A program made the translations under genes and the position numbers. The notes beneath the pieces are model-generated. The model did not search any database. It worked only from the letters and a program-made list of their open reading frames with translations, and was not told the origin of the DNA. A stretch of 64,000 nucleotides of DNA from a virus, in IMG/VR virus record IMGVR_UViG_3300025073_000026; one strand, written 5' to 3'. Positions 3,802-32,828 of this stretch are shown here, in pieces. The first letter of the stretch is position 1. The number at the start of each line of letters is the position of its first letter.

Positions 3802-3927
3802 CAACCTACCTCCCCTTCCCACCCCATACTACCCTACCACAAGGATTCCTAACAGGTACAAGTTGCTCCCCACGGTAATCCCATTATGGAGTAGCCTTTC
3901 AATAGCAGCGAGTTTGGAGGCCAACCC

Positions 3928-4311: not shown

Positions 4312-5306
4312 CTAGGGATTGGCGGAAACATCAATGGGGGCCCTCCACATGACTTTGGAAGTAGATCTCCGAGCACCCCATCCAAATGGTTCTCTGGGTA
4401 AAGGTCACTCGGGAACACTTCACGTAGAGTCAATCCCTTCCGCTTGGCCATGTCACGCTTCTTTCCAACGGCAGTATCATAATCCTTATGCCCATGCCAT
4501 AGGCCGAAATACTCCAGCCAGATATCTTTGTCAGGCAGATAGAAATCACAAGTGCAGCGACTCTGAGGGTACCTCTTTTGAGTGGTGTGCTGTATCCCGT
4601 GTGCCGATAGCCAATCGTCCACAATCTTTTCCGAGATACTATCCGCCCGATGACCGTCTTTGCAAGGAATCCCTTTCCGGGTGTACCATTCTGTATTAGG
4701 GGGGATGCCTAGAGACTCCATAGCTTTATTCCATGATCCAAAGAACCGGGAAGCCGCACCTGTCAACTTATGCCCGACTTCTTTGGTTGTGGGTGTTCTT
4801 CCGAACTCAATGTAGAGCTGCTGAATCCGAGATATGACCTCATCTTTGGTAAGGGGGAGTGAACCAAAATGTAGGATCTGTCCGCAAATCTTAGAACAAG
4901 CACGGGCGTCCTTATTTATGGGATGAAAACTATTACCACATATAACGCAATCCTTGGCAGCATGAATGGCTCCAGAGTTGGTTTCTTGAAGATGCCGTAT
5001 CTGTGCTTGGCGAGTCCGTTCCTTGGACTCTAGACTGCGGGGTGCTCTCCGTTGGTTGTTGTAGGTGGCAGCGCATGATTTGGAACAGAACACTCGTTTT
5101 GACGGGTTTTTGCGGCTGGGGGTTACATACACAGGTTTCCCACAAGTCAGGCAATTTTGGTCTTCGCCCACCCGGCGACTGTTCCCCTGGCAGTCTGGGG
5201 AACAGAACTGTAACCAACCCTGCTTTTCAGCTTCATTGGCTCTATTTACTGGCCGATCAAAGGCTTTGCCACAATGATCACAAACAACCTGTCTGATTCT
5301 GGACAT
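4224..5306 (-). CDS. putative homing endonuclease (zinc ribbons + PD-(D/E)XK/DUF559-like nuclease)
   Basis: Repeated CxxC...FCSxxC zinc motifs, GSWNKAM helical repeat, SEKIVDDWL...CDFYLPDKDIWLEYFG nuclease signature; lies directly downstream of tRNA-Pro. Confidence 0.7.
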   Translation of the reverse strand: MSRIRQVVCDHCGKAFDRPVNRANEAEKQGWLQFCSPDCQGNSRRVGEDQNCLTCGKPVYVTPSRKNPSKRVFCSKSCAATYNNQRRAPRSLESKERTRQAQIRHLQETNSGAIHAAKDCVICGNSFHPINKDARACSKICGQILHFGSLPLTKDEVISRIQQLYIEFGRTPTTKEVGHKLTGAASRFFGSWNKAMESLGIPPNTEWYTRKGIPCKDGHRADSISEKIVDDWLSAHGIQHTTQKRYPQSRCTCDFYLPDKDIWLEYFGLWHGHKDYDTAVGKKRDMAKRKGLTLREVFPSDLYPENHLDGVLGDLLPKSCGGPPLMFPPIPSYLWISCLCTTSSGDTENTTSPVLPMGSK

Positions 5307-5338
5307 AGGTAGTGCCTCCCTGTGGAGGCACTACCTAT
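5305..5338 (-). promoter_or_regulatory. RBS-sequestering hairpin of the endonuclease gene
   Basis: Perfect 15-bp stem with 4-nt loop containing GGAGG and the AT of the ATG. Confidence 0.8.
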
Positions 5339-5369
5339 AAGGAAAATAACGGAGTGGCAGACTTTGGAG

Positions 5370-15570: not shown

Positions 15571-16095
15571 TCAATCAACCAGTTCCGTCACAAGGACAGA
15601 ACCTGGTTCCCATCCCTCTAACCGCATGCTCAAATGCAGGTTCAACTGCTCCAACACTTGTTTGATCTCTTTGATGGATTTTCGGCCAAGCCCCTTCAAC
15701 TTGATCAAGTCAATTTCACTGAGTTGGACTATCTCACCTACCCAATGGATCCGAGCAGCATGCAGCACATGCTCTGTACGGATAGACAAATCAAGGTTGC
15801 TGACTTGTAGGCTACAGGCATGCCCCATATCCGACTCTCCCTCAGTTGGGTATGGATCAGCATCAGGCTGGATAGGTTTCTCACAATACAGGCTCAACTT
15901 TTCCTTGGTTGCCTTCCTGAGCCTGTATTCCATCCGAGCAAGAATCTGCCGTACTCGCTCTCTGGAGAGGAACACCTTCTCACCGATTTCTTCCAGGCTC
16001 ATTACAGGTGCTCGACCCTGACCGTCCTGTAGGAGCGGAATACCGTATCGGAGGCACAGGATCGTGATGTCCCGTGGATTGATAGGAGTTGGCAT
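15571..16095 (-). CDS. sigma70 region-4 HTH fused to RNA polymerase alpha-CTD-like domain
   Basis: MSLEEIGEKVFLSRERVRQI (sigma4.2) plus LDLSIRTEHVL..ARI..VGEIVQLSEIDLIKLKGLGRKSIKEIKQVL (alphaCTD). Confidence 0.85.
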   Translation of the reverse strand: MPTPINPRDITILCLRYGIPLLQDGQGRAPVMSLEEIGEKVFLSRERVRQILARMEYRLRKATKEKLSLYCEKPIQPDADPYPTEGESDMGHACSLQVSNLDLSIRTEHVLHAARIHWVGEIVQLSEIDLIKLKGLGRKSIKEIKQVLEQLNLHLSMRLEGWEPGSVLVTELVD

Positions 16096-18489: not shown

Positions 18490-18543
18490 TCCCAGTACAC
18501 CTCCACAACAACATACTACTCTATTCTGACCCAACCTAACATG

Positions 18544-20328: not shown

Positions 20329-20333
20329 AAAGG

Positions 20334-20531
20334 TTACTCCTCAAATCCTTGTGTGTCCATGTCGATCTGGTCACCCCCACTGGCACTGATGAACCACTGT
20401 TTGGCCCCTTTCCAATATGAATTCTTCTTGGAGCAGCAAACGATCCCACAGACCTCCCCCTCATATGCCCAGACATAGGCATTGTCCGGAATCTTGGACA
20501 GAAGTTCTTTCAAACGTTTGGCTCTGATCAT
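20334..20531 (-). CDS. hypothetical protein
   Basis: GGGGG RBS-like; lies between tRNAs. Confidence 0.55.
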   Translation of the reverse strand: MIRAKRLKELLSKIPDNAYVWAYEGEVCGIVCCSKKNSYWKGAKQWFISASGGDQIDMDTQGFEE

Positions 20532-20594
20532 TCAGACCCCCCATCAAGTTACACCCTAGGCTACCCCATTAGGGTAATCTCTGGCACAAAATAC

Positions 20595-22477: not shown

Positions 22478-22518
22478 ATACTACTCTACTGCCCTATAGA
22501 GGTAACAGGAGAAAACGG

Positions 22519-22593
22519 TCGGGGTGATTGGATCCTCGAACCAGCGACACCGAAACCCCAATCTCGTGGGCTACCTGGCTGCCCTACATCCCG
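22519..22593 (-). pseudogene. degenerate tRNA-Pro(GGG)
   Basis: tRNA-like arms, but 6-nt anticodon loop, 9-nt T-loop and mismatches in the acceptor and T stems. Confidence 0.65.
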
Positions 22594-23584: not shown

Positions 23585-23656
23585 CGGGAGTGACGAGAAT
23601 CGGACTCGCCTCATTGGCGTGACAAGCCAACCGCCTCACCAGAAGCGTACACCCCC
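23585..23656 (-). tRNA. tRNA-Asp(GUC), C55 variant
   Basis: TTGGC-TT GTC AC-GCCAA; G73; T-loop TCCGATT. Confidence 0.85.
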
Positions 23657-24081: not shown

Positions 24082-24132
24082 GCGAATCACCTCCACAGGC
24101 ATACTACCCGGCACAGCAGGATCCTAACAGAG

Positions 24133-24457
24133 CGGGTGTGGGAGGAATTGAACCTCCAACCTACGGATTACCCGTGCCCCCAAGTTTCCTTGGGACGTGG
24201 ACTATCTCATCATCCTAATCTGCTAGGATGCCGGGGGCTGACGGGGCTTATTGCTTTGGCTCTGCTCATCCCCTAGTCTCTGCACCTTCCAACCTACACA
24301 CTAAAACCAATTCGGTTGGTTCGGCTCAGGGTCACCATGCCCACCCGTAGAGGTGGGTTTAGGCTTCCTTGAATTCTCCCGGTTTGTCATGCTGGGTTAC
24401 CCCAACAAGCTGCATTTTCCTACAGTCCGTTGCCCTAACCAATTGGGCCACACACCC
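24133..24457 (-). tRNA. tRNA-Asn(GUU) split by a group I intron (exons 24422-24457 and 24133-24170)
   Basis: Spliced loop ACGGA-CT GT|T AA-TCCGT; G73. Confidence 0.85.
24171..24421 (-). mobile_element. group I intron (251 nt, no ORF), IC3-like
   Basis: P AATTCAAGGAAGC, Q GACCCTGAGCC, R GTGCAGAGACTAG, S GAGATAGTCC; P1 exon CUGU pairs with IGS GCAG (U.G at the splice site); terminal omegaG. Confidence 0.88.
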
Positions 24458-24546: not shown

Positions 24547-24622
24547 TGGTGGGAATGGCGGTAGTCGAAACCGCACTCTCAGGTTGAAAACCTGATGTCC
24601 AGAACCGCTAGACCACATTCCC
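24547..24622 (-). tRNA. tRNA-Glu(UUC)
   Basis: TCAGG-TT TTC AA-CCTGA; encoded CCA; U53:A61. Confidence 0.88.
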
Positions 24623-24634
24623 ATCCTGCAACAG

Positions 24635-24707
24635 TCGGAACGGGCAGAGTCGAACTGCCGACCTAACGGTTATCAACCGTTTGCTCTACCAACTGAGCTA
24701 CGCTCCG
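24635..24707 (-). tRNA. tRNA-Ile(GAU)
   Basis: AACGG-TT GAT AA-CCGTT. Confidence 0.9.
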
Positions 24708-24719
24708 AAACTATCCAAC

Positions 24720-24812
24720 ACGGAGGCCATGGGGGTGGTCTCTACACAGACCGTCACTTTGGGGTAGGTGTGTAGCCTTTTCCCAAAATTCAGACCCCCA
24801 TGGACTCTCCGT
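24720..24812 (-). ncRNA. novel structured RNA: three-way junction with kissing loops
   Basis: Outer stems ACGGAG/CTCCGT and CCATGGGGGT/ACCCCCATGG; two inner hairpins with complementary loops CTACAC and GTGTAG; strand inferred from the flanking tRNAs. Confidence 0.6.
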
Positions 24813-24814
24813 AG

Positions 24815-24888
24815 TCGGAGTGAGTGGATTTGAACCACCGGCCATCTGAGCCCGACTCAGAAGCTCTACCAGGCTGAGCTACACTCCG
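24815..24888 (-). tRNA. tRNA-Pro(CGG)
   Basis: TCTGA-GT CGG GC-TCAGA (unusual G32/C38). Confidence 0.85.
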
Positions 24889-24892
24889 ATAG

Positions 24893-24965
24893 CGGGCGAT
24901 ACAGAACTCGGATCTGTATTCCAGGATTCGTAATCCTGTGTCCTCTCCAATTAGACTAATCGCCC
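24893..24965 (-). tRNA. tRNA-Arg(ACG), C55 variant
   Basis: CAGGA-TT ACG AA-TCCTG; T arm ACAGA-TCCGAGT-TCTGT. Confidence 0.85.
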
Positions 24966-27804: not shown

Positions 27805-28123
27805 GTGTCCACCACCTCCACACCTTCTTACTACTCTGATGTAGCAATGACTAACAGGAAAACGTTTGGCAGAGGATAGGCAGTACTCGAAACTGCACCG
27901 GATGGCATCAGCCACCCTTGCGAGACCCCGCATGGCACAATGGCCTTGCGTCCTCCATCTTCTATCCCCCGGAAATTCACAATGCAATGTACGCTCTGAC
28001 CAGATGGGTTGCTGGTCAGGCATACGATTGTACTTCGGTTGTCAAAGATCGGTTGACTCCTGATGCCTGTTTCGCACCGTCCCTCCCCGTCCAAATCTCA
28101 GGGGAGAAAGAGTCTAGCCAAGG

Positions 28124-28345: not shown

Positions 28346-28366
28346 GATTGTCTTGAAATTGTAGGT

Positions 28367-28675
28367 CTACTTCCAGAAGCTTTGTTTCGGCTGGTTGTCA
28401 AAGAGCAAATCCGATTCCGGGTGCGACCGCATCCGCTGCCAGGGTTCTGGCAGATGGTAGGGGCGCACCCTTTGATCCTTCCCGCGGTAATTGGCCGCAA
28501 GAATGGTCTCCGGGCACAAGCCCCGGAAACCCACGGATCCCATAATCGTCGTTGCGCTCAATGACACTTCAACTCCAACTGCTGTTTCAGGTTCATCCCT
28601 GCTCACACAGGGGCAACTATCATTGTCACTCTTACCATCGTGCTTGGAACTTGTCAAGCACTTTCTTCCACACAA
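28367..28675 (-). CDS. hypothetical protein (start uncertain)
   Basis: Downstream of promoter at 28678-28705. Confidence 0.35.
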   Translation of the reverse strand: MCGRKCLTSSKHDGKSDNDSCPCVSRDEPETAVGVEVSLSATTIMGSVGFRGLCPETILAANYRGKDQRVRPYHLPEPWQRMRSHPESDLLFDNQPKQSFWK

Positions 28676-29953: not shown

Positions 29954-30442
29954 CTATTCCTTTTCCTTCATCAGCAGTTGATGCCTATCCCCACACAAGG
30001 CACAGATAACCAGGGGTTCCTTTCCACTATCATCTCGTATCAAAGTGCCATCACAATCGGACGATTTACAGAGGGTCTCTGTACTCTTTACAGCAGGGCC
30101 AATAATTCCCTTCGACTGCCGATACCTGACTACATCGCTGTACCGTTCCGGGTACCTTCCTGAGAACCACTGCATGCGTGTTTTCTTCATGACGAGAGCA
30201 AACCACTTTATGGTCCGGGTCGTATGCCCTATCTGGAAAACCGCAATAATCCGGACACCTTTATTCCCCTGGAACTCCCAGGATTCCATTGCGAAGCGGG
30301 ATTCCTCCAACGGGTAAGTGTCCACGATAAGGAACTCTGGCCATCGTCGCTGTATCTCGTGGAGACACTGGGCTTCCTCCTCGTAGGTAAGTGGATCTAT
30401 CCGCATGTTTAGCGTCCCAACTTCTTCATGGCAGCCAGCCAC
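29954..30442 (-). CDS. hypothetical protein with C-terminal zinc ribbon
   Basis: CKSSDC...CALCG. Confidence 0.55.
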   Translation of the reverse strand: MAGCHEEVGTLNMRIDPLTYEEEAQCLHEIQRRWPEFLIVDTYPLEESRFAMESWEFQGNKGVRIIAVFQIGHTTRTIKWFALVMKKTRMQWFSGRYPERYSDVVRYRQSKGIIGPAVKSTETLCKSSDCDGTLIRDDSGKEPLVICALCGDRHQLLMKEKE

Positions 30443-31116
30443 TTTTGGGTAATGACTAGTTGGCCTTCATATGCCCTGTAGCGTCCTCGAACCCAATTCA
30501 GGTTCCCGCTTGGGTGATCAATTGTGGCCCCCAGTTTAGCCAAAAGAGCAGCAAGAGACTCATGAATATGGGCTGAGATGTGCAATTGGCAATCTGGTAC
30601 ATCGAGGGTACGATCCGCTTCCGTGAAGTCCCTCCCGCAAATGGGGCAAATGTGGGGGCTGTAAACATGCTCAATACATAAGAGCATCTCAATTGCACGA
30701 TCCGCGTTCTCTTCAGTCAGCCCTATATTGGAATCTGTCTTGACTAAGTGGGGAAGCAAATCACCCATGTCTGTGTTATCGTCTAGAATCACATAAGGCA
30801 TCTTAGCAGGATAGCGTGCTAAGAAGGCTCCGATCTCTTCGTCACGGGGAATGTCACGCCTGAAATCGGGGGTGTACTTGACCTCTCCGGGCAATCGGAT
30901 GTTCTGACGGAATAGTTCCTTTGTGAGATCGGCTGCAGTGCGGTTGAAACGCCACACCGATGAAATGACAACTTGTGCTTCTGTTATTTTGAGTACCCTG
31001 TTCAGGGCATTGACACAAACAGGATCAAAGGTAGCAAAAGTGCCAAACTGCTTTGCTGACCTGGAGCTATTCAGTACCCCGTCAATATCTAGGAATAGGA
31101 ATGGTTTGCTGTCCAA
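30409..31116 (-). CDS. HAD phosphatase (Swiss-Army-knife RNA-repair-like HAD domain)
   Basis: FLDIDGVLNS, VVISSVWR, R.EEI..FL, YVILDD, GLT. Confidence 0.82.
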   Translation of the reverse strand: MDSKPFLFLDIDGVLNSSRSAKQFGTFATFDPVCVNALNRVLKITEAQVVISSVWRFNRTAADLTKELFRQNIRLPGEVKYTPDFRRDIPRDEEIGAFLARYPAKMPYVILDDNTDMGDLLPHLVKTDSNIGLTEENADRAIEMLLCIEHVYSPHICPICGRDFTEADRTLDVPDCQLHISAHIHESLAALLAKLGATIDHPSGNLNWVRGRYRAYEGQLVITQKWLAAMKKLGR

Positions 31117-31171
31117 TTATTGCCCCTCCCCTCTATACTACCCAAATCGATGGGTTCCTAACAGAAAAGTT

Positions 31172-31930: not shown

Positions 31931-32779
31931 CTACGCCTCCGTACATTGTGTTGCCTGAGGATCGGGAATTATGACAATGGGAGCTTCCCCATAGATCAGG
32001 ACTCCGACCCGATTTGCCACAGCACCAAACTTAGGCATATCCAATTCCTGGACTTCATGGCGTTCTACGACCAGGTTGGGATCCTTCCTAGCTGCGTGTT
32101 TGGCCGGAAGTTTCCCGATCTCGGACGCCGTAAACGGCCTCTGTACCGTAACCCGCCGAATCCATGCCCCCCGTTTGGCCCAAGCGGGATAGTCGCTCCA
32201 GTTGATGCCCTTCTCTTGGAACAGCATCTCTTGAATCTCCTTGGTATCCTTGTGCATGAGCTGCTTGTGTGAGAATACTGCCTGCCCAGCAGCTTGGATA
32301 CTGTTACGGGCAGCATCCTGCTCCCGCCACAGAAAGACATTGGCGGCTTCAATCAGTGTGGGCACTGACCACACCCTGCAATCGAACACAGGCATCTGAT
32401 GCATCTTGTCAGGTAAGTAGTGGGGGATCTTTCGGTTGAAATCCGCGGTTGCCAGTGCCGCCAGGATAGAACACATCTTCTGGATGCGTCCATCAAAGAA
32501 AACCTGACTCTTGATGTTGTCGCTGTACCAGCACAAGCTGATCTCATCAGACTGTCGGTATCCCACGACAGCATTGGTTTCCTCCACCAGAAACTTGGTA
32601 ACAGACACCATTAGGCTCTTGAATCGTTCATCGAAGGGTCGGTTCAGTCCACGGCAGAAGGAATGGAAACTCCTGCCGTCCAGTCGGGCCATGATGGGAA
32701 GGAGGGGCATCAGACGTCGGCTACTTTCAGCCCCTTCGTACAACTTCATACGGTCACCGAAATCATCTGCTTTCATCAT
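31931..32779 (-). CDS. thg1: tRNA(His) guanylyltransferase Thg1-like protein
   Basis: ARLDGRSFHSF, GYRQSDEISL, FFDGRIQK, FDCRV, WREQDAARNSI, GINW.DYP.W.KRG. Confidence 0.93.
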   Translation of the reverse strand: MMKADDFGDRMKLYEGAESSRRLMPLLPIMARLDGRSFHSFCRGLNRPFDERFKSLMVSVTKFLVEETNAVVGYRQSDEISLCWYSDNIKSQVFFDGRIQKMCSILAALATADFNRKIPHYLPDKMHQMPVFDCRVWSVPTLIEAANVFLWREQDAARNSIQAAGQAVFSHKQLMHKDTKEIQEMLFQEKGINWSDYPAWAKRGAWIRRVTVQRPFTASEIGKLPAKHAARKDPNLVVERHEVQELDMPKFGAVANRVGVLIYGEAPIVIIPDPQATQCTEA

Positions 32780-32828
32780 CCACCTCCACACCCCCTACTA
32801 CCCGGTAGGTTGGCTCTCTAACAACAAA

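What the first reader, a model, noticed from the sequence alone, without database searches (positions are those of the whole stretch)
24720..24812. 93-nt three-way-junction RNA with perfectly complementary kissing loops, placed like a tRNA in the array
It sits between tRNA-Ile and tRNA-Pro with spacers of 12 and 2 nt. The closing helix is 16 bp (6+10). Hairpin A is TTTGGG..AGG-[CTACACA]-CCT..CCCAAA and hairpin B is GGTCT-[GTGTAG]-AGACC, so the loops can form six Watson-Crick pairs. The topology recalls purine riboswitches and loop-loop ribozymes. It has CTGA after the closing stem but lacks the full hammerhead core (CUGAnGA/GAAA) and has no T or D loops. Flanking tRNA processing would release it as a discrete RNA. 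I do not recognise the family.
Basis: partly seen in the sequence, partly recalled or inferred. Interest (0 to 1): 0.72.

Follow-up and report, generated by a model that had tools for sequence, protein, structure and literature searches.

The report
Orphan folded RNA in phage tRNA array
A large uncultured phage encodes, in a slot between two of its tRNA genes, a very stably folded 93-base non-tRNA RNA whose two hairpin tips could pair with each other. It fits no known RNA family and has no detectable relatives, so its reality as a functional RNA and its role remain unproven.

Summary
On the minus strand (the strand of all 31+ tRNA genes), window 24720-24812 folds into a 17-bp bulged closing helix, a three-way junction and two hairpins. 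Their loops, CUACACA and GUGUAG, are complementary over six Watson-Crick pairs. The fold has MFE -48 kcal/mol and z -4.5, stronger than the flanking tRNAs, and is the second most stable 95-nt fold among 25,564 windows. It folds on its own inside the tRNA-Pro/element/tRNA-Ile precursor. It has no promoter or terminator of its own.

It matches no Rfam family, even at E<=10. That excludes tRNA, hammerhead, purine riboswitch, pRNA and Y RNA by profile.

No homolog was found in GenBank phages, IMG/VR, metagenome contigs or prokaryote genomes. The phage lineage is an orphan and its copies are identical, so loop covariation cannot be tested. Loop pairs this complementary occur at about 6e-4 per pair, with five in this window. 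They are therefore notable only given the element's other properties.

Best reading (about 0.5): a discrete small RNA cut out by tRNA-processing enzymes, like T4 RNAC/RNAD. Its loops may kiss within one molecule or between molecules, as in phi29 pRNA.

The scan has flagged analogous, sequence-unrelated tRNA-array RNAs in other phages.

The parts
24720..24812 (-). The 93-nt structured RNA element (RNA position p = 24814 minus the window coordinate)
   Evidence: RNAfold MFE -48 kcal/mol, z -4.5. Second most stable 95-nt fold in the window. Same fold inside the 255-nt precursor.
24794..24812 (-). 5' strand of the closing helix (6+1+10 bp, bulged A and U). Its first bases, CGGAGAGU, resemble the start of tRNA-Pro, CGGAGUGU.
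   Evidence: (inverted repeat I1)
24790..24793 (-). Junction strand CUGA
24756..24789 (-). Hairpin A: 8 bp (one G-U pair), AAA/AC internal loop, 3 bp. Loop CUACACA lies at 24769-24775.
24753..24755 (-). Junction strand GAC
24737..24752 (-). Hairpin B: 5-bp stem. Loop GUGUAG lies at 24742-24747. It abuts the 3' strand of the closing helix with no linker, as a T arm abuts the acceptor stem.
24720..24736 (-). 3' strand of the closing helix
24708..24719 (-). 12-nt trailer before tRNA-Ile. Its first six bases, GUUGGA (24714-24719), can pair with the 3' end of tRNA-Pro (24814-24819). That would lengthen the helix to about 23 bp in the precursor.
   Evidence: centroid structure of the 255-nt precursor
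24814..24888 (-). Upstream tRNA-Pro(CGG). Its nt 5-10 are GUGUAG, identical to loop B.
24634..24707 (-). Downstream tRNA-Ile(GAU)
27828..27856 (-). Nearest upstream phage-type promoter (TGTTAG-N16-GTAGTAA). Likely start of the mixed mRNA/tRNA transcript that carries the element.
   Evidence: 25 motif matches against 0.9 expected
24101..24129 (-). Next phage-type promoter, downstream of the tRNA sub-array

Best explanation
The element is a discrete, stably folded small RNA of about 91-95 nt. It is a passenger in a phage tRNA/mRNA polycistron.

Proposed steps:
1. It is transcribed from a phage-type promoter about 3 kb upstream, together with tRNA-Arg, tRNA-Pro, tRNA-Ile, tRNA-Glu, tRNA-Met and an intron-bearing tRNA. 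This is inferred from promoter positions.
2. It folds on its own into a long bulged helix stacked on a 5-bp T-arm-like hairpin, with a second, longer hairpin branching off. The fold is shown by prediction; the stacking is inferred.
3. It is freed by the enzymes that mature its neighbours. RNase P, or the 3' processing of tRNA-Pro, cuts 1-2 nt before its helix. RNase P cutting at tRNA-Ile leaves a 12-nt tail that exonucleases trim back to the helix. This is inferred.
4. The two loops then form a six-base-pair kissing helix. This is inferred, and I cannot tell which.

The cellular role is unknown. The tRNA supply and repair context (Thg1, HAD_SAK_2) makes a role connected with tRNA metabolism, or with host tRNA-targeting defence, the first thing to test.
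For: - The fold is exceptional. MFE -48 kcal/mol, 34% of the ensemble, z -4.48 with 0 of 200 shuffles as good. The flanking genuine tRNAs score z -3.1 and -1.9. It ranks 2nd of 25,564 windows.
- It keeps the same fold as an autonomous domain between two cloverleaves in the 255-nt precursor.
- It lies on the same strand as 31+ tRNAs, with tRNA-like spacers of 1-2 and 12 nt.
- It has no promoter of its own. The phage motif TGTTAG-N16-GTAGTAT occurs 25 times against 0.9 expected, and the nearest copies are at 27828-27856 upstream and 24101-24129 downstream. No sigma-70-like promoter or terminator lies at the element.
- No ORF covers it.
- The outer 5 bp (CGGAG/CUCCG) are the acceptor-stem bases of the neighbouring tRNA-Pro, and hairpin B abuts the 3' strand as a T arm does.
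- The loops are 6/6 Watson-Crick complementary, -7.5 kcal/mol. The complementarity does not extend into the stems, so it is not a leftover of a longer palindrome (sequence).
- Precedents exist. T4 transcribes two small RNAs of unknown role, RNAC and RNAD, from its tRNA region (PMC3014915, PMC9697503). ROOL and GOLLD lie near phage tRNA islands and self-assemble through kissing loops (PMC12286853). pRNA is a three-way junction with mutually complementary loops (PMC4201828).
Against: - There is no homolog anywhere, so there is no covariation and no evidence of selection.
- The three loci fetched and aligned (of 24 contigs read that carry the neighbouring protein, the rest listed as similar places) are identical over the element, at most 1 difference in 12.4 kb.
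- No expression data exist.
- The plus strand folds as well.
- Loop complementarity of this degree occurs five times in this window by the same measure, which is what chance predicts.
- The arms are unequal (11 bp plus an internal loop, against 5 bp), and the internal loop has no K-turn consensus. An intramolecular kiss is therefore not obviously feasible.
- The helix, at 17-23 bp, is longer than RNase P's usual acceptor/T-stem substrate.
Confidence: 0.5

Rival explanations
1. It is a processing or insulating element, not an RNA with a function of its own. The long helix (17 bp, extendable to about 23 bp with the tRNA-Pro 3' end and the trailer) would be an RNase III-type cut site. Alternatively it would be a folding insulator between two tRNAs whose acceptor ends are nearly identical (CGGAG...). 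The loop complementarity would be coincidental.
For: - The centroid fold of the precursor extends the helix by 6 bp, using UCCGAC of tRNA-Pro and GUUGGA of the trailer.
- tRNA-Pro, the element and tRNA-Ile all begin with CGGAG.
- Loop matches of 6 nt arise at the chance rate in this window.
- No relatives keep the loops (all homolog searches).
Against: - No other tRNA junction in this array carries such an element. Other gaps fold no better than shuffles, and the covariance model finds no second copy in the window.
- A cut site needs only a helix, not two well-formed inner hairpins.
- The extension competes with the tRNA-Pro acceptor stem, which would already have folded during transcription.
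Confidence: 0.22
2. It is evolutionary debris. It would be a rewired duplicate of a Pro/Ile-type tRNA gene, or a palindromic insertion. It would be tolerated because it is spliced out of the array by normal tRNA processing, and it would have no function.
For: - The first 8 nt, CGGAGAGU, compare with tRNA-Pro CGGAGUGU, and the 3' CUCCG is shared.
- Loop B equals tRNA-Pro nt 5-10.
- It is a singleton with no relatives.
Against: - Decay erodes structure. Here 33 of 33 predicted pairs are standard and the fold is better defined than real tRNAs.
- There is no similarity to tRNA beyond the helix ends (no tRNA hit at E<=10).
- No other copy exists in the window, and no multi-copy family in 185,579 species genomes matches a stem-anchored pattern.
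Confidence: 0.13
3. It is a DNA-level signal. It could be an inverted repeat bound by a protein. It could also be a folded single-strand signal for recombination, replication or an IS200/IS605-type element, since the phage carries TnpB/IsrB-like genes.
For: - A 14-nt, 93%-complementary inverted repeat with a CCATGG core.
- Both strands fold equally well.
Against: - It sits exactly in a tRNA slot, on the transcribed strand, inside an operon.
- Nested hairpins are not expected of a duplex operator.
- It shares no sequence with any other place in the window, including the IS-like genes' ends.
Confidence: 0.07
4. It is a self-cleaving ribozyme or a ligand-sensing riboswitch, of hammerhead-like or purine-riboswitch-like topology.
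For: - The helix order and the CUGA after the closing helix mimic a type I hammerhead.
- A three-way junction with loop-loop contact recalls purine riboswitches.
Against: - No hammerhead, twister, pistol, hatchet or purine family match even at E<=10.
- The core lacks NGA, GAAA and the UH site.
- In hammerheads the contacting loops are on stems I and II, not on the two inner hairpins.
- The junction strands of 4, 3 and 0 nt leave no purine-type pocket.
- No expression platform or regulated ORF follows. The next gene is a tRNA.
Confidence: 0.03

Closest known systems
T4 RNAC and RNAD (species 1 and 2 stable RNAs of the T4 tRNA region)
   Same: They are small non-tRNA RNAs transcribed from a phage tRNA gene region. 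Their roles are still unknown (PMC3014915; PMC9697503). This is the same kind of genomic placement.
   Different: There is no sequence similarity. blastn of the element against 50,697 phage records, a collection built from GenBank phage records, found nothing at E<=10. The fold plan with complementary loops is, to my knowledge, not described for RNAC or RNAD. The host and phage lineage are unrelated.
phi29-family prohead/packaging RNA (pRNA, Rfam RF00044)
   Same: It shares the long closing helix formed by the 5' and 3' ends, the three-way junction, and two loops that are complementary to each other. In pRNA these loops pair between copies to build a ring (PMC4201828).
   Different: There is no RF00044 match at E<=10. 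The genome is at least 118-140 kb and tRNA-rich, not a 19-kb phi29-like phage. The element is not next to a packaging ATPase or portal gene and sits inside a tRNA operon. The complementarity is 6 nt here and shorter in phi29. Oligomerisation is untested.
ROOL and GOLLD large ornate RNAs
   Same: They are phage or prophage RNAs often found beside tRNA islands. They form homo-oligomers held by kissing loops, and their function is unknown (PMC12286853).
   Different: GOLLD members often exceed 800 nt and ROOL is also a large, multiply pseudoknotted RNA, against 93 nt here. There are no Rfam matches.
Lysine and purine riboswitch aptamers (intramolecular loop-loop contacts)
   Same: Neighbouring arms of a multi-helix junction are joined by loop-loop pairing. 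In the lysine riboswitch the L2-L3 contact depends on a kink in the longer arm (PMC3082890). The AAA/AC internal loop of hairpin A could play that part.
   Different: There is no family match, no ligand pocket, no K-turn consensus and no expression platform.
D-armless tRNA-like fold / canonical tRNA (RF00005)
   Same: The outer 5 bp are identical to the tRNA-Pro acceptor stem. A 5-bp hairpin abuts the 3' strand like a T arm. Hairpin A has a 7-nt loop with U at its second position.
   Different: The helix is 17 bp, not 7 bp. There are no T-loop or D-loop sequences, no tRNA model hit and no ARAGORN call.

Membership tests
tRNA (RF00005) | Cloverleaf with 7-bp acceptor stem, D arm and T arm, scoring above the model's gathering threshold | tested here: not met
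   cmscan at E<=10 over 24600-24920 reports only the two flanking tRNAs. ARAGORN calls nothing at 24708-24813.
Hammerhead ribozyme | Core CUGANGA ... GAAA ... UH around three helices, with tertiary contact between stems I and II | tested here: not met
   Only CUGA is present. The second junction strand is GAC and the third has no nucleotides. No hammerhead family match at E<=10.
Purine riboswitch (RF00167) | Three-way junction with conserved J1/2, J2/3 and J3/1 pocket nucleotides, L2-L3 kissing, and a 5'-UTR position with an expression platform | tested here: not met
   Junction strands are 4, 3 and 0 nt. No match at E<=10. The downstream gene is a tRNA.
phi29-type pRNA (RF00044) | Long closing helix, three-way junction and two mutually complementary loops | tested here: met
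   Predicted fold and 6/6 complementary loops.
phi29-type pRNA (RF00044) | Match to the family covariance model | tested here: not met
   No match at E<=10.
phi29-type pRNA (RF00044) | Encoded by a small phi29-like phage, with its own promoter, functionally tied to the portal and packaging ATPase | tested here: not met
   Contigs of 86-140 kb carry the locus. The element lies inside a tRNA operon without its own promoter. None of the 40 ORFs scanned matched a packaging-gene family; the Pfam scans covered 11-37 kb and PHROGs ten scattered ORFs.
phi29-type pRNA (RF00044) | Loops pair between molecules to form rings | not testable with these tools
   This needs native gels, AUC or cryo-EM with trans-complementing loop mutants.
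Phage tRNA-cluster small stable RNAs (T4 RNAC/RNAD type) | Non-tRNA RNA gene inside the tRNA gene cluster, on the same strand | tested here: met
Phage tRNA-cluster small stable RNAs (T4 RNAC/RNAD type) | Accumulates as a discrete stable RNA after processing | not testable with these tools
Only indirect support exists: no own promoter or terminator.
Phage tRNA-cluster small stable RNAs (T4 RNAC/RNAD type) | Sequence homology to T4 rnaC or rnaD | tested here: not met
   No blastn match in 50,697 phage records at E<=10.
Y RNA / YrlA (RF02553) | Model match, and an Ro60 (TROVE) gene nearby | tested here: not met
   The only weak YrlA hit (19 bits against a threshold of 69) lies on tRNA-Pro, not on the element. 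No TROVE domain was found among 30 ORFs scanned between 11 and 37 kb.
Intrinsic terminator | GC-rich hairpin followed by a U tract | tested here: not met
   No terminator-like site at the element. The trailer GUGUUGGAUAGUUU has no U run directly after the stem.
ROOL / GOLLD | Large multi-domain RNA matching RF03087 or RF01998 | tested here: not met
   No match. The element is 93 nt.

The most novel reading that the evidence does not exclude
The 93-nt RNA is a miniature self-assembling RNA. Here that would occur in a large tRNA-rich phage, with no link to a phi29-type packaging motor. This would extend RNA-only quaternary assembly (pRNA, ROOL, GOLLD) to a tiny new class tied to phage tRNA islands.
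Probability: 0.15. Interest if true: 0.75.

Novelty: new member of a known kind. Interest (0 to 1): 0.45.

Why it matters
Phage tRNA arrays are increasingly seen as counter-defence and translation-support islands. Several still unexplained structured RNAs ride along with them, such as T4 RNAC/RNAD, ROOL and GOLLD. A 93-nt RNA with a simple, testable design would be a far more tractable model than the 600-800-nt ornate RNAs. That design is a helix, a three-way junction and two mutually complementary loops. It could show what such passengers do and whether kissing-loop self-assembly is a general theme.

If it proves to be only a processing helix or debris, the case is still useful. It shows that a perfect six-base loop match occurs at the chance rate in a 64-kb window, and is not evidence for a tertiary contact on its own.

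Tried and rejected
Family searches
- Rfam at gathering thresholds over the window, and at E<=10 over 24600-24920, found no family for the element.

Homolog searches, all negative
- megablast and blastn against GenBank phages.
- An exact 16-mer of hairpin B in IMG/VR gave 6 chance hits.
- A loop-anchored gapped pattern in IMG/VR gave 24 chance hits, none with the fold.
- A stem-anchored pattern in IMG/VR gave 0 hits.
- Two loop-anchored patterns in metagenome contigs gave 0 and 16 hits, none matching the model.
- A stem-anchored pattern in 185,579 species genomes gave 17 unrelated inverted repeats in unrelated taxa, so no multi-copy host element.
- The single-sequence covariance model R1 was run on the window (no second copy) and on three huge uncultured phages with the closest Thg1 plus two IMG/VR tRNA-array contigs. 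One 17.5-bit hit lies inside a LAGLIDADG-type coding frame and is chance.
- R1 was also run on contigs carrying distant relatives of neighbouring genes.

Synteny route
- The PF15891 neighbour has no relative above 50% identity.
- The 216-aa neighbour has none at all among 5.8 billion clusters.
- Relatives of the sigma4-alphaCTD protein lie in unrelated temperate phages.
- Three loci of the same phage, from different samples, are identical across the element.
- A tRNA-Ile anticodon-arm pattern found other phage arrays, one with tRNA-Pro directly followed by tRNA-Ile and no element.

Ideas dropped
- Cas12a-repeat mimicry: only CUAC/GUAG is shared, and the loop is far too long.
- K-turn in hairpin A: no G-A/A-G pairs.
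- A peptide-coding role: AUG GGG GUC UGA only.
- A shared 12-mer with the 20.5-kb gap: this is a ribosome-binding site of a small ORF, E 0.3-0.6.

Full report
**What is there**

The window carries at least 32 tRNA genes, all on the minus strand: 31 by ARAGORN and one more by Rfam. There is also a group I intron next to the tRNA-Met gene.

The flagged stretch is therefore read as the reverse complement of 24720-24812. It lies 1-2 nt after the discriminator base of tRNA-Pro(CGG) (24815). It lies 12 nt before the first base of tRNA-Ile(GAU) (24707).

RNAfold gives one dominant structure, 34% of the ensemble, with the centroid identical to the MFE:
- A closing helix of 6+1+10 bp with two single-base bulges on the 5' strand.
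- A four-base junction strand, CUGA.
- Hairpin A: 8 bp including one G-U pair, an AAA/AC internal loop, 3 bp, and the loop CUACACA.
- A three-base strand, GAC.
- Hairpin B: 5 bp with the loop GUGUAG.
- No nucleotide between hairpin B and the 3' strand of the closing helix.

The energy is -48.0 kcal/mol, z -4.48, and none of 200 shuffles folds as well.

**Is it more than chance?**

The fold is.
- In a scan of all 95-nt windows at 5-nt steps on both strands (25,564 folds), this locus is the second most stable. Its G+C content is lower than that of the top locus.
- Its z-score exceeds those of the genuine tRNAs on either side, which are -3.1 and -1.9.
- Other gaps in the array fold no better than shuffled sequence.
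- In the 255-nt tRNA-Pro/element/tRNA-Ile precursor, the MFE structure is two cloverleaves with the unchanged element between them.

The loop complementarity needs more care.
- It is six-for-six Watson-Crick, with a duplex energy of -7.5 kcal/mol.
- It does not continue into the stems, so it is not the remnant of a longer palindrome.
- However, I measured the same quantity for every pair of hairpin loops in the window's local MFE folds. 5 of 8,722 pairs (6e-4) reach six contiguous pairs, which is what random sequence predicts.
- The match is therefore notable, at roughly 1e-3, only because this element was singled out on independent grounds. It is not evidence for a tertiary contact on its own.

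**Strand and transcription**

Energy does not choose the strand: -48.7 on the plus strand against -48.0 on the minus. Context does.

A phage-specific promoter motif, TGTTAG-N16-GTAGTAT, occurs 25 times against 0.9 expected, always pointing along the local genes. On the minus strand the nearest copy upstream of the element is at 27828-27856. The next one downstream is at 24101-24129. No sigma-70-like promoter or terminator-like site touches the element.

The element therefore has no transcription signals of its own. It sits in a mixed transcript with CoaD-like and deoxyribosyltransferase-like genes and at least nine tRNAs. Excision by the nucleases that mature the neighbouring tRNAs is the simplest route to a discrete RNA. 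This is an inference.

**What it is not**

- Rfam finds nothing on the element at gathering thresholds.
- Rfam also finds nothing at E<=10 in a 321-nt search, where the filters are lax. That covers tRNA, all hammerhead models, the other small ribozymes, the purine riboswitch, pRNA, Y RNA/YrlA, STnc100, ROOL and GOLLD. The only weak hit (YrlA, 19 bits) lies on tRNA-Pro.
- The hammerhead core is absent apart from CUGA.
- The junction strands are too short for a purine-type pocket.
- There is no U tract for a terminator.
- No ORF covers it.
- It is single-copy in the window, both by covariance model and by blastn.

**Search for relatives**

DNA and model searches were all negative.
- GenBank phages were searched by blastn.
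- IMG/VR, metagenome contigs and one genome per prokaryote species were scanned with exact and gapped patterns. The patterns were anchored either on the loops or on the closing helix.
- Every returned locus was then screened by fold or by the model R1. All hits were chance or pattern-forced.
- R1 found nothing credible in three huge uncultured phages that hold the closest Thg1 genes. Its one 17.5-bit hit lies in a LAGLIDADG-type reading frame.

The reason is that the lineage is isolated.
- One neighbouring protein has no homolog at all among 5.8 billion clusters.
- Another has none above 50% identity.
- The same phage has been assembled many times from ENA, JGI and Logan data. The three loci fetched and aligned carry at most one substitution in 12.4 kb and none in the element; the other places were listed only as similar.

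There is thus neither deep nor shallow variation to work with.

**Anatomy and likely mechanism**

Three features suggest that the RNA presents itself to tRNA-processing enzymes.
- Its outermost five pairs, CGGAG/CUCCG, are the acceptor-stem pairs of the adjacent tRNA-Pro. Its first eight bases differ from those of tRNA-Pro at one position.
- Hairpin B has a 5-bp stem and abuts the 3' strand without a linker. This is the T-arm/acceptor arrangement that allows coaxial stacking.
- The spacers match those between true tRNAs in this array.

The helix, at 17 bp, is far too long for a translating tRNA.

The loops can be read in two ways.
- An intramolecular kiss would compact the RNA. The arms are unequal, so hairpin A would have to bend sharply at its AAA/AC internal loop. 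The lysine riboswitch achieves its L2-L3 contact in this way, through a kink-turn (PMC3082890). No K-turn consensus is present here.
- Alternatively, the design is exactly that of the phi29-family pRNA: a long closing helix, a three-way junction and two mutually complementary loops. In pRNA the loops pair between copies to form rings (PMC4201828).

ROOL and GOLLD are phage RNAs that often lie beside tRNA islands, and they also self-assemble through kissing loops (PMC12286853). I cannot decide between cis and trans pairing with the tools at hand. The trans-complementation experiment used for pRNA would decide it.

**Rivals**

- Processing signal. The centroid fold of the precursor extends the helix by six pairs, between the 3' end of tRNA-Pro and the first six trailer bases. 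That gives about 23 bp of interrupted duplex. This is the length class of RNase III substrates, by my own knowledge. The element could therefore be mainly a processing or insulating signal.
- Rewired tRNA duplicate. The resemblance of its ends and of loop B (identical to tRNA-Pro nt 5-10) to tRNA-Pro also allows an origin as a rewired tRNA duplicate without function.
- DNA-level role. This is possible but fits poorly with nested hairpins in a transcribed tRNA slot.
- Ribozyme or riboswitch. These readings are the least likely.

**Context**

The surrounding 25 kb encodes tRNA-supply and RNA-repair functions:
- Thg1 and a HAD_SAK_2 domain protein.
- NAD/ADP-ribose enzymes.
- A sigma-region-4/alpha-CTD fusion protein.

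No Ro60, RtcB or packaging gene was seen among the 40 ORFs scanned (30 against Pfam between 11 and 37 kb, 10 against PHROGs across the window).

**Comparison and verdict**

By placement, the element works like the T4 RNAC/RNAD small RNAs, which are transcribed from the tRNA region and still have unknown roles (PMC3014915, PMC9697503). By architecture it resembles pRNA. It is a member of neither family by sequence or by model.

Earlier notes of this scan describe sequence-unrelated tRNA-array RNAs with pairing loops in other large phages. A by-sequence look-up found no look-alike of this one. Those notes are leads, not evidence.

My verdict is that this is a real and unusually well-defined local RNA fold in a tRNA slot. 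It is most likely a processed small RNA of a known kind but a new, orphan sequence class. Its kissing interaction and its function remain untested.

Noticed in passing
window 24178-24432 (-), with flanks to about 24133-24457: Group I intron (Rfam RF00028, 71 bits, full-length model). It lies immediately downstream of tRNA-Met on the tRNA strand, apparently interrupting a tRNA gene. I did not verify the exons.
   Followed up: partly
window-wide, e.g. 3826-3854, 18513-18541, 24101-24129, 31135-31163 (-) and 53005-33 (+): Phage-specific promoter-like motif TGTTAG-N16-GTAGTAT. It has 25 matches at up to 2 mismatches against 0.9 expected, and each points along the local coding strand.
   Followed up: yes
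window 15571-16095 (-): A 174-aa protein joins sigma-70 region 4 and the RNA polymerase alpha C-terminal domain (Pfam, both above threshold). The only relatives with this architecture are 35-41% identical over 33-76% of the query; the two whose contigs were fetched lie in unrelated temperate phages.
   Followed up: partly
window 31931-32791 (-) and 30409-31116 (-): A Thg1 tRNA-His guanylyltransferase, with closest relatives at 51-54% identity in 485-635-kb uncultured phages. Nearby is a HAD_SAK_2 'Swiss Army Knife RNA repair' domain protein. Together they form an RNA-repair module beside the tRNA array.
   Followed up: partly
window 5304-5339 (-): A perfect 16-bp hairpin with a 4-nt loop, about 30 nt downstream of tRNA-Pro(UGG) and touching the start of an HNH-endonuclease-like ORF (PHROG matches). 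The region's z-score is -4.6. It could be a terminator, an RNase III site or a mobile-element end.
   Followed up: no
window 22517-22593 (-): A poor tRNA (30.7 bits, just above threshold) that ARAGORN reports with a two-base 'anticodon' (gg). It has a Pro-type acceptor stem. Its MFE fold is not a cloverleaf.
   Followed up: no
window 23585-23656 (-): A tRNA found by Rfam (47.5 bits) but missed by ARAGORN. It folds as a clean cloverleaf with a 6-bp D-arm-like stem. By my reading the anticodon loop gives GUC (Asp).
   Followed up: partly
It contains T-arm-like and GNRA-capped hairpins, but its folding energy is not better than shuffles (z -0.4 to -0.8).
   Followed up: partly
window 28346-28530 (-); 28416-28510 (+): The most stable 95-nt fold in the whole window (-49.7 kcal/mol, plus strand). 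It lies just upstream, in transcript terms, of tRNA-Lys(UUU). On the minus strand it is a row of hairpins with z -2.7. It may be a structured leader.
   Followed up: partly
window 20329-20541 (-): The 266-nt gap between tRNA-Tyr and tRNA-Trp appears to hold a small ORF of about 65 aa, preceded by a GGGGGG ribosome-binding site. Its RBS region shares a 12-mer, GGGGGUCUGAAU, with the element. I judge this chance (E 0.3-0.6).
   Followed up: partly
window 24714-24719 and 24814-24819 (-): The first six trailer bases after the element (GUUGGA) are complementary to the last six bases of tRNA-Pro (UCCGAC). This lets the precursor form an alternative helix of about 23 bp that competes with the tRNA-Pro acceptor stem.
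   Followed up: partly
L007, L008, L009 (ENA ERZ4902915; JGI 3300003358, 3300009285): 24 contigs were read that carry this phage's PF15891 protein (up to 140 kb; ENA, JGI, Logan). The three loci aligned are practically identical, 0-1 differences in 12.4 kb. Several of the phage's proteins have no homologs at all. It is an abundant, clonal, phylogenetically isolated phage.
   Followed up: partly
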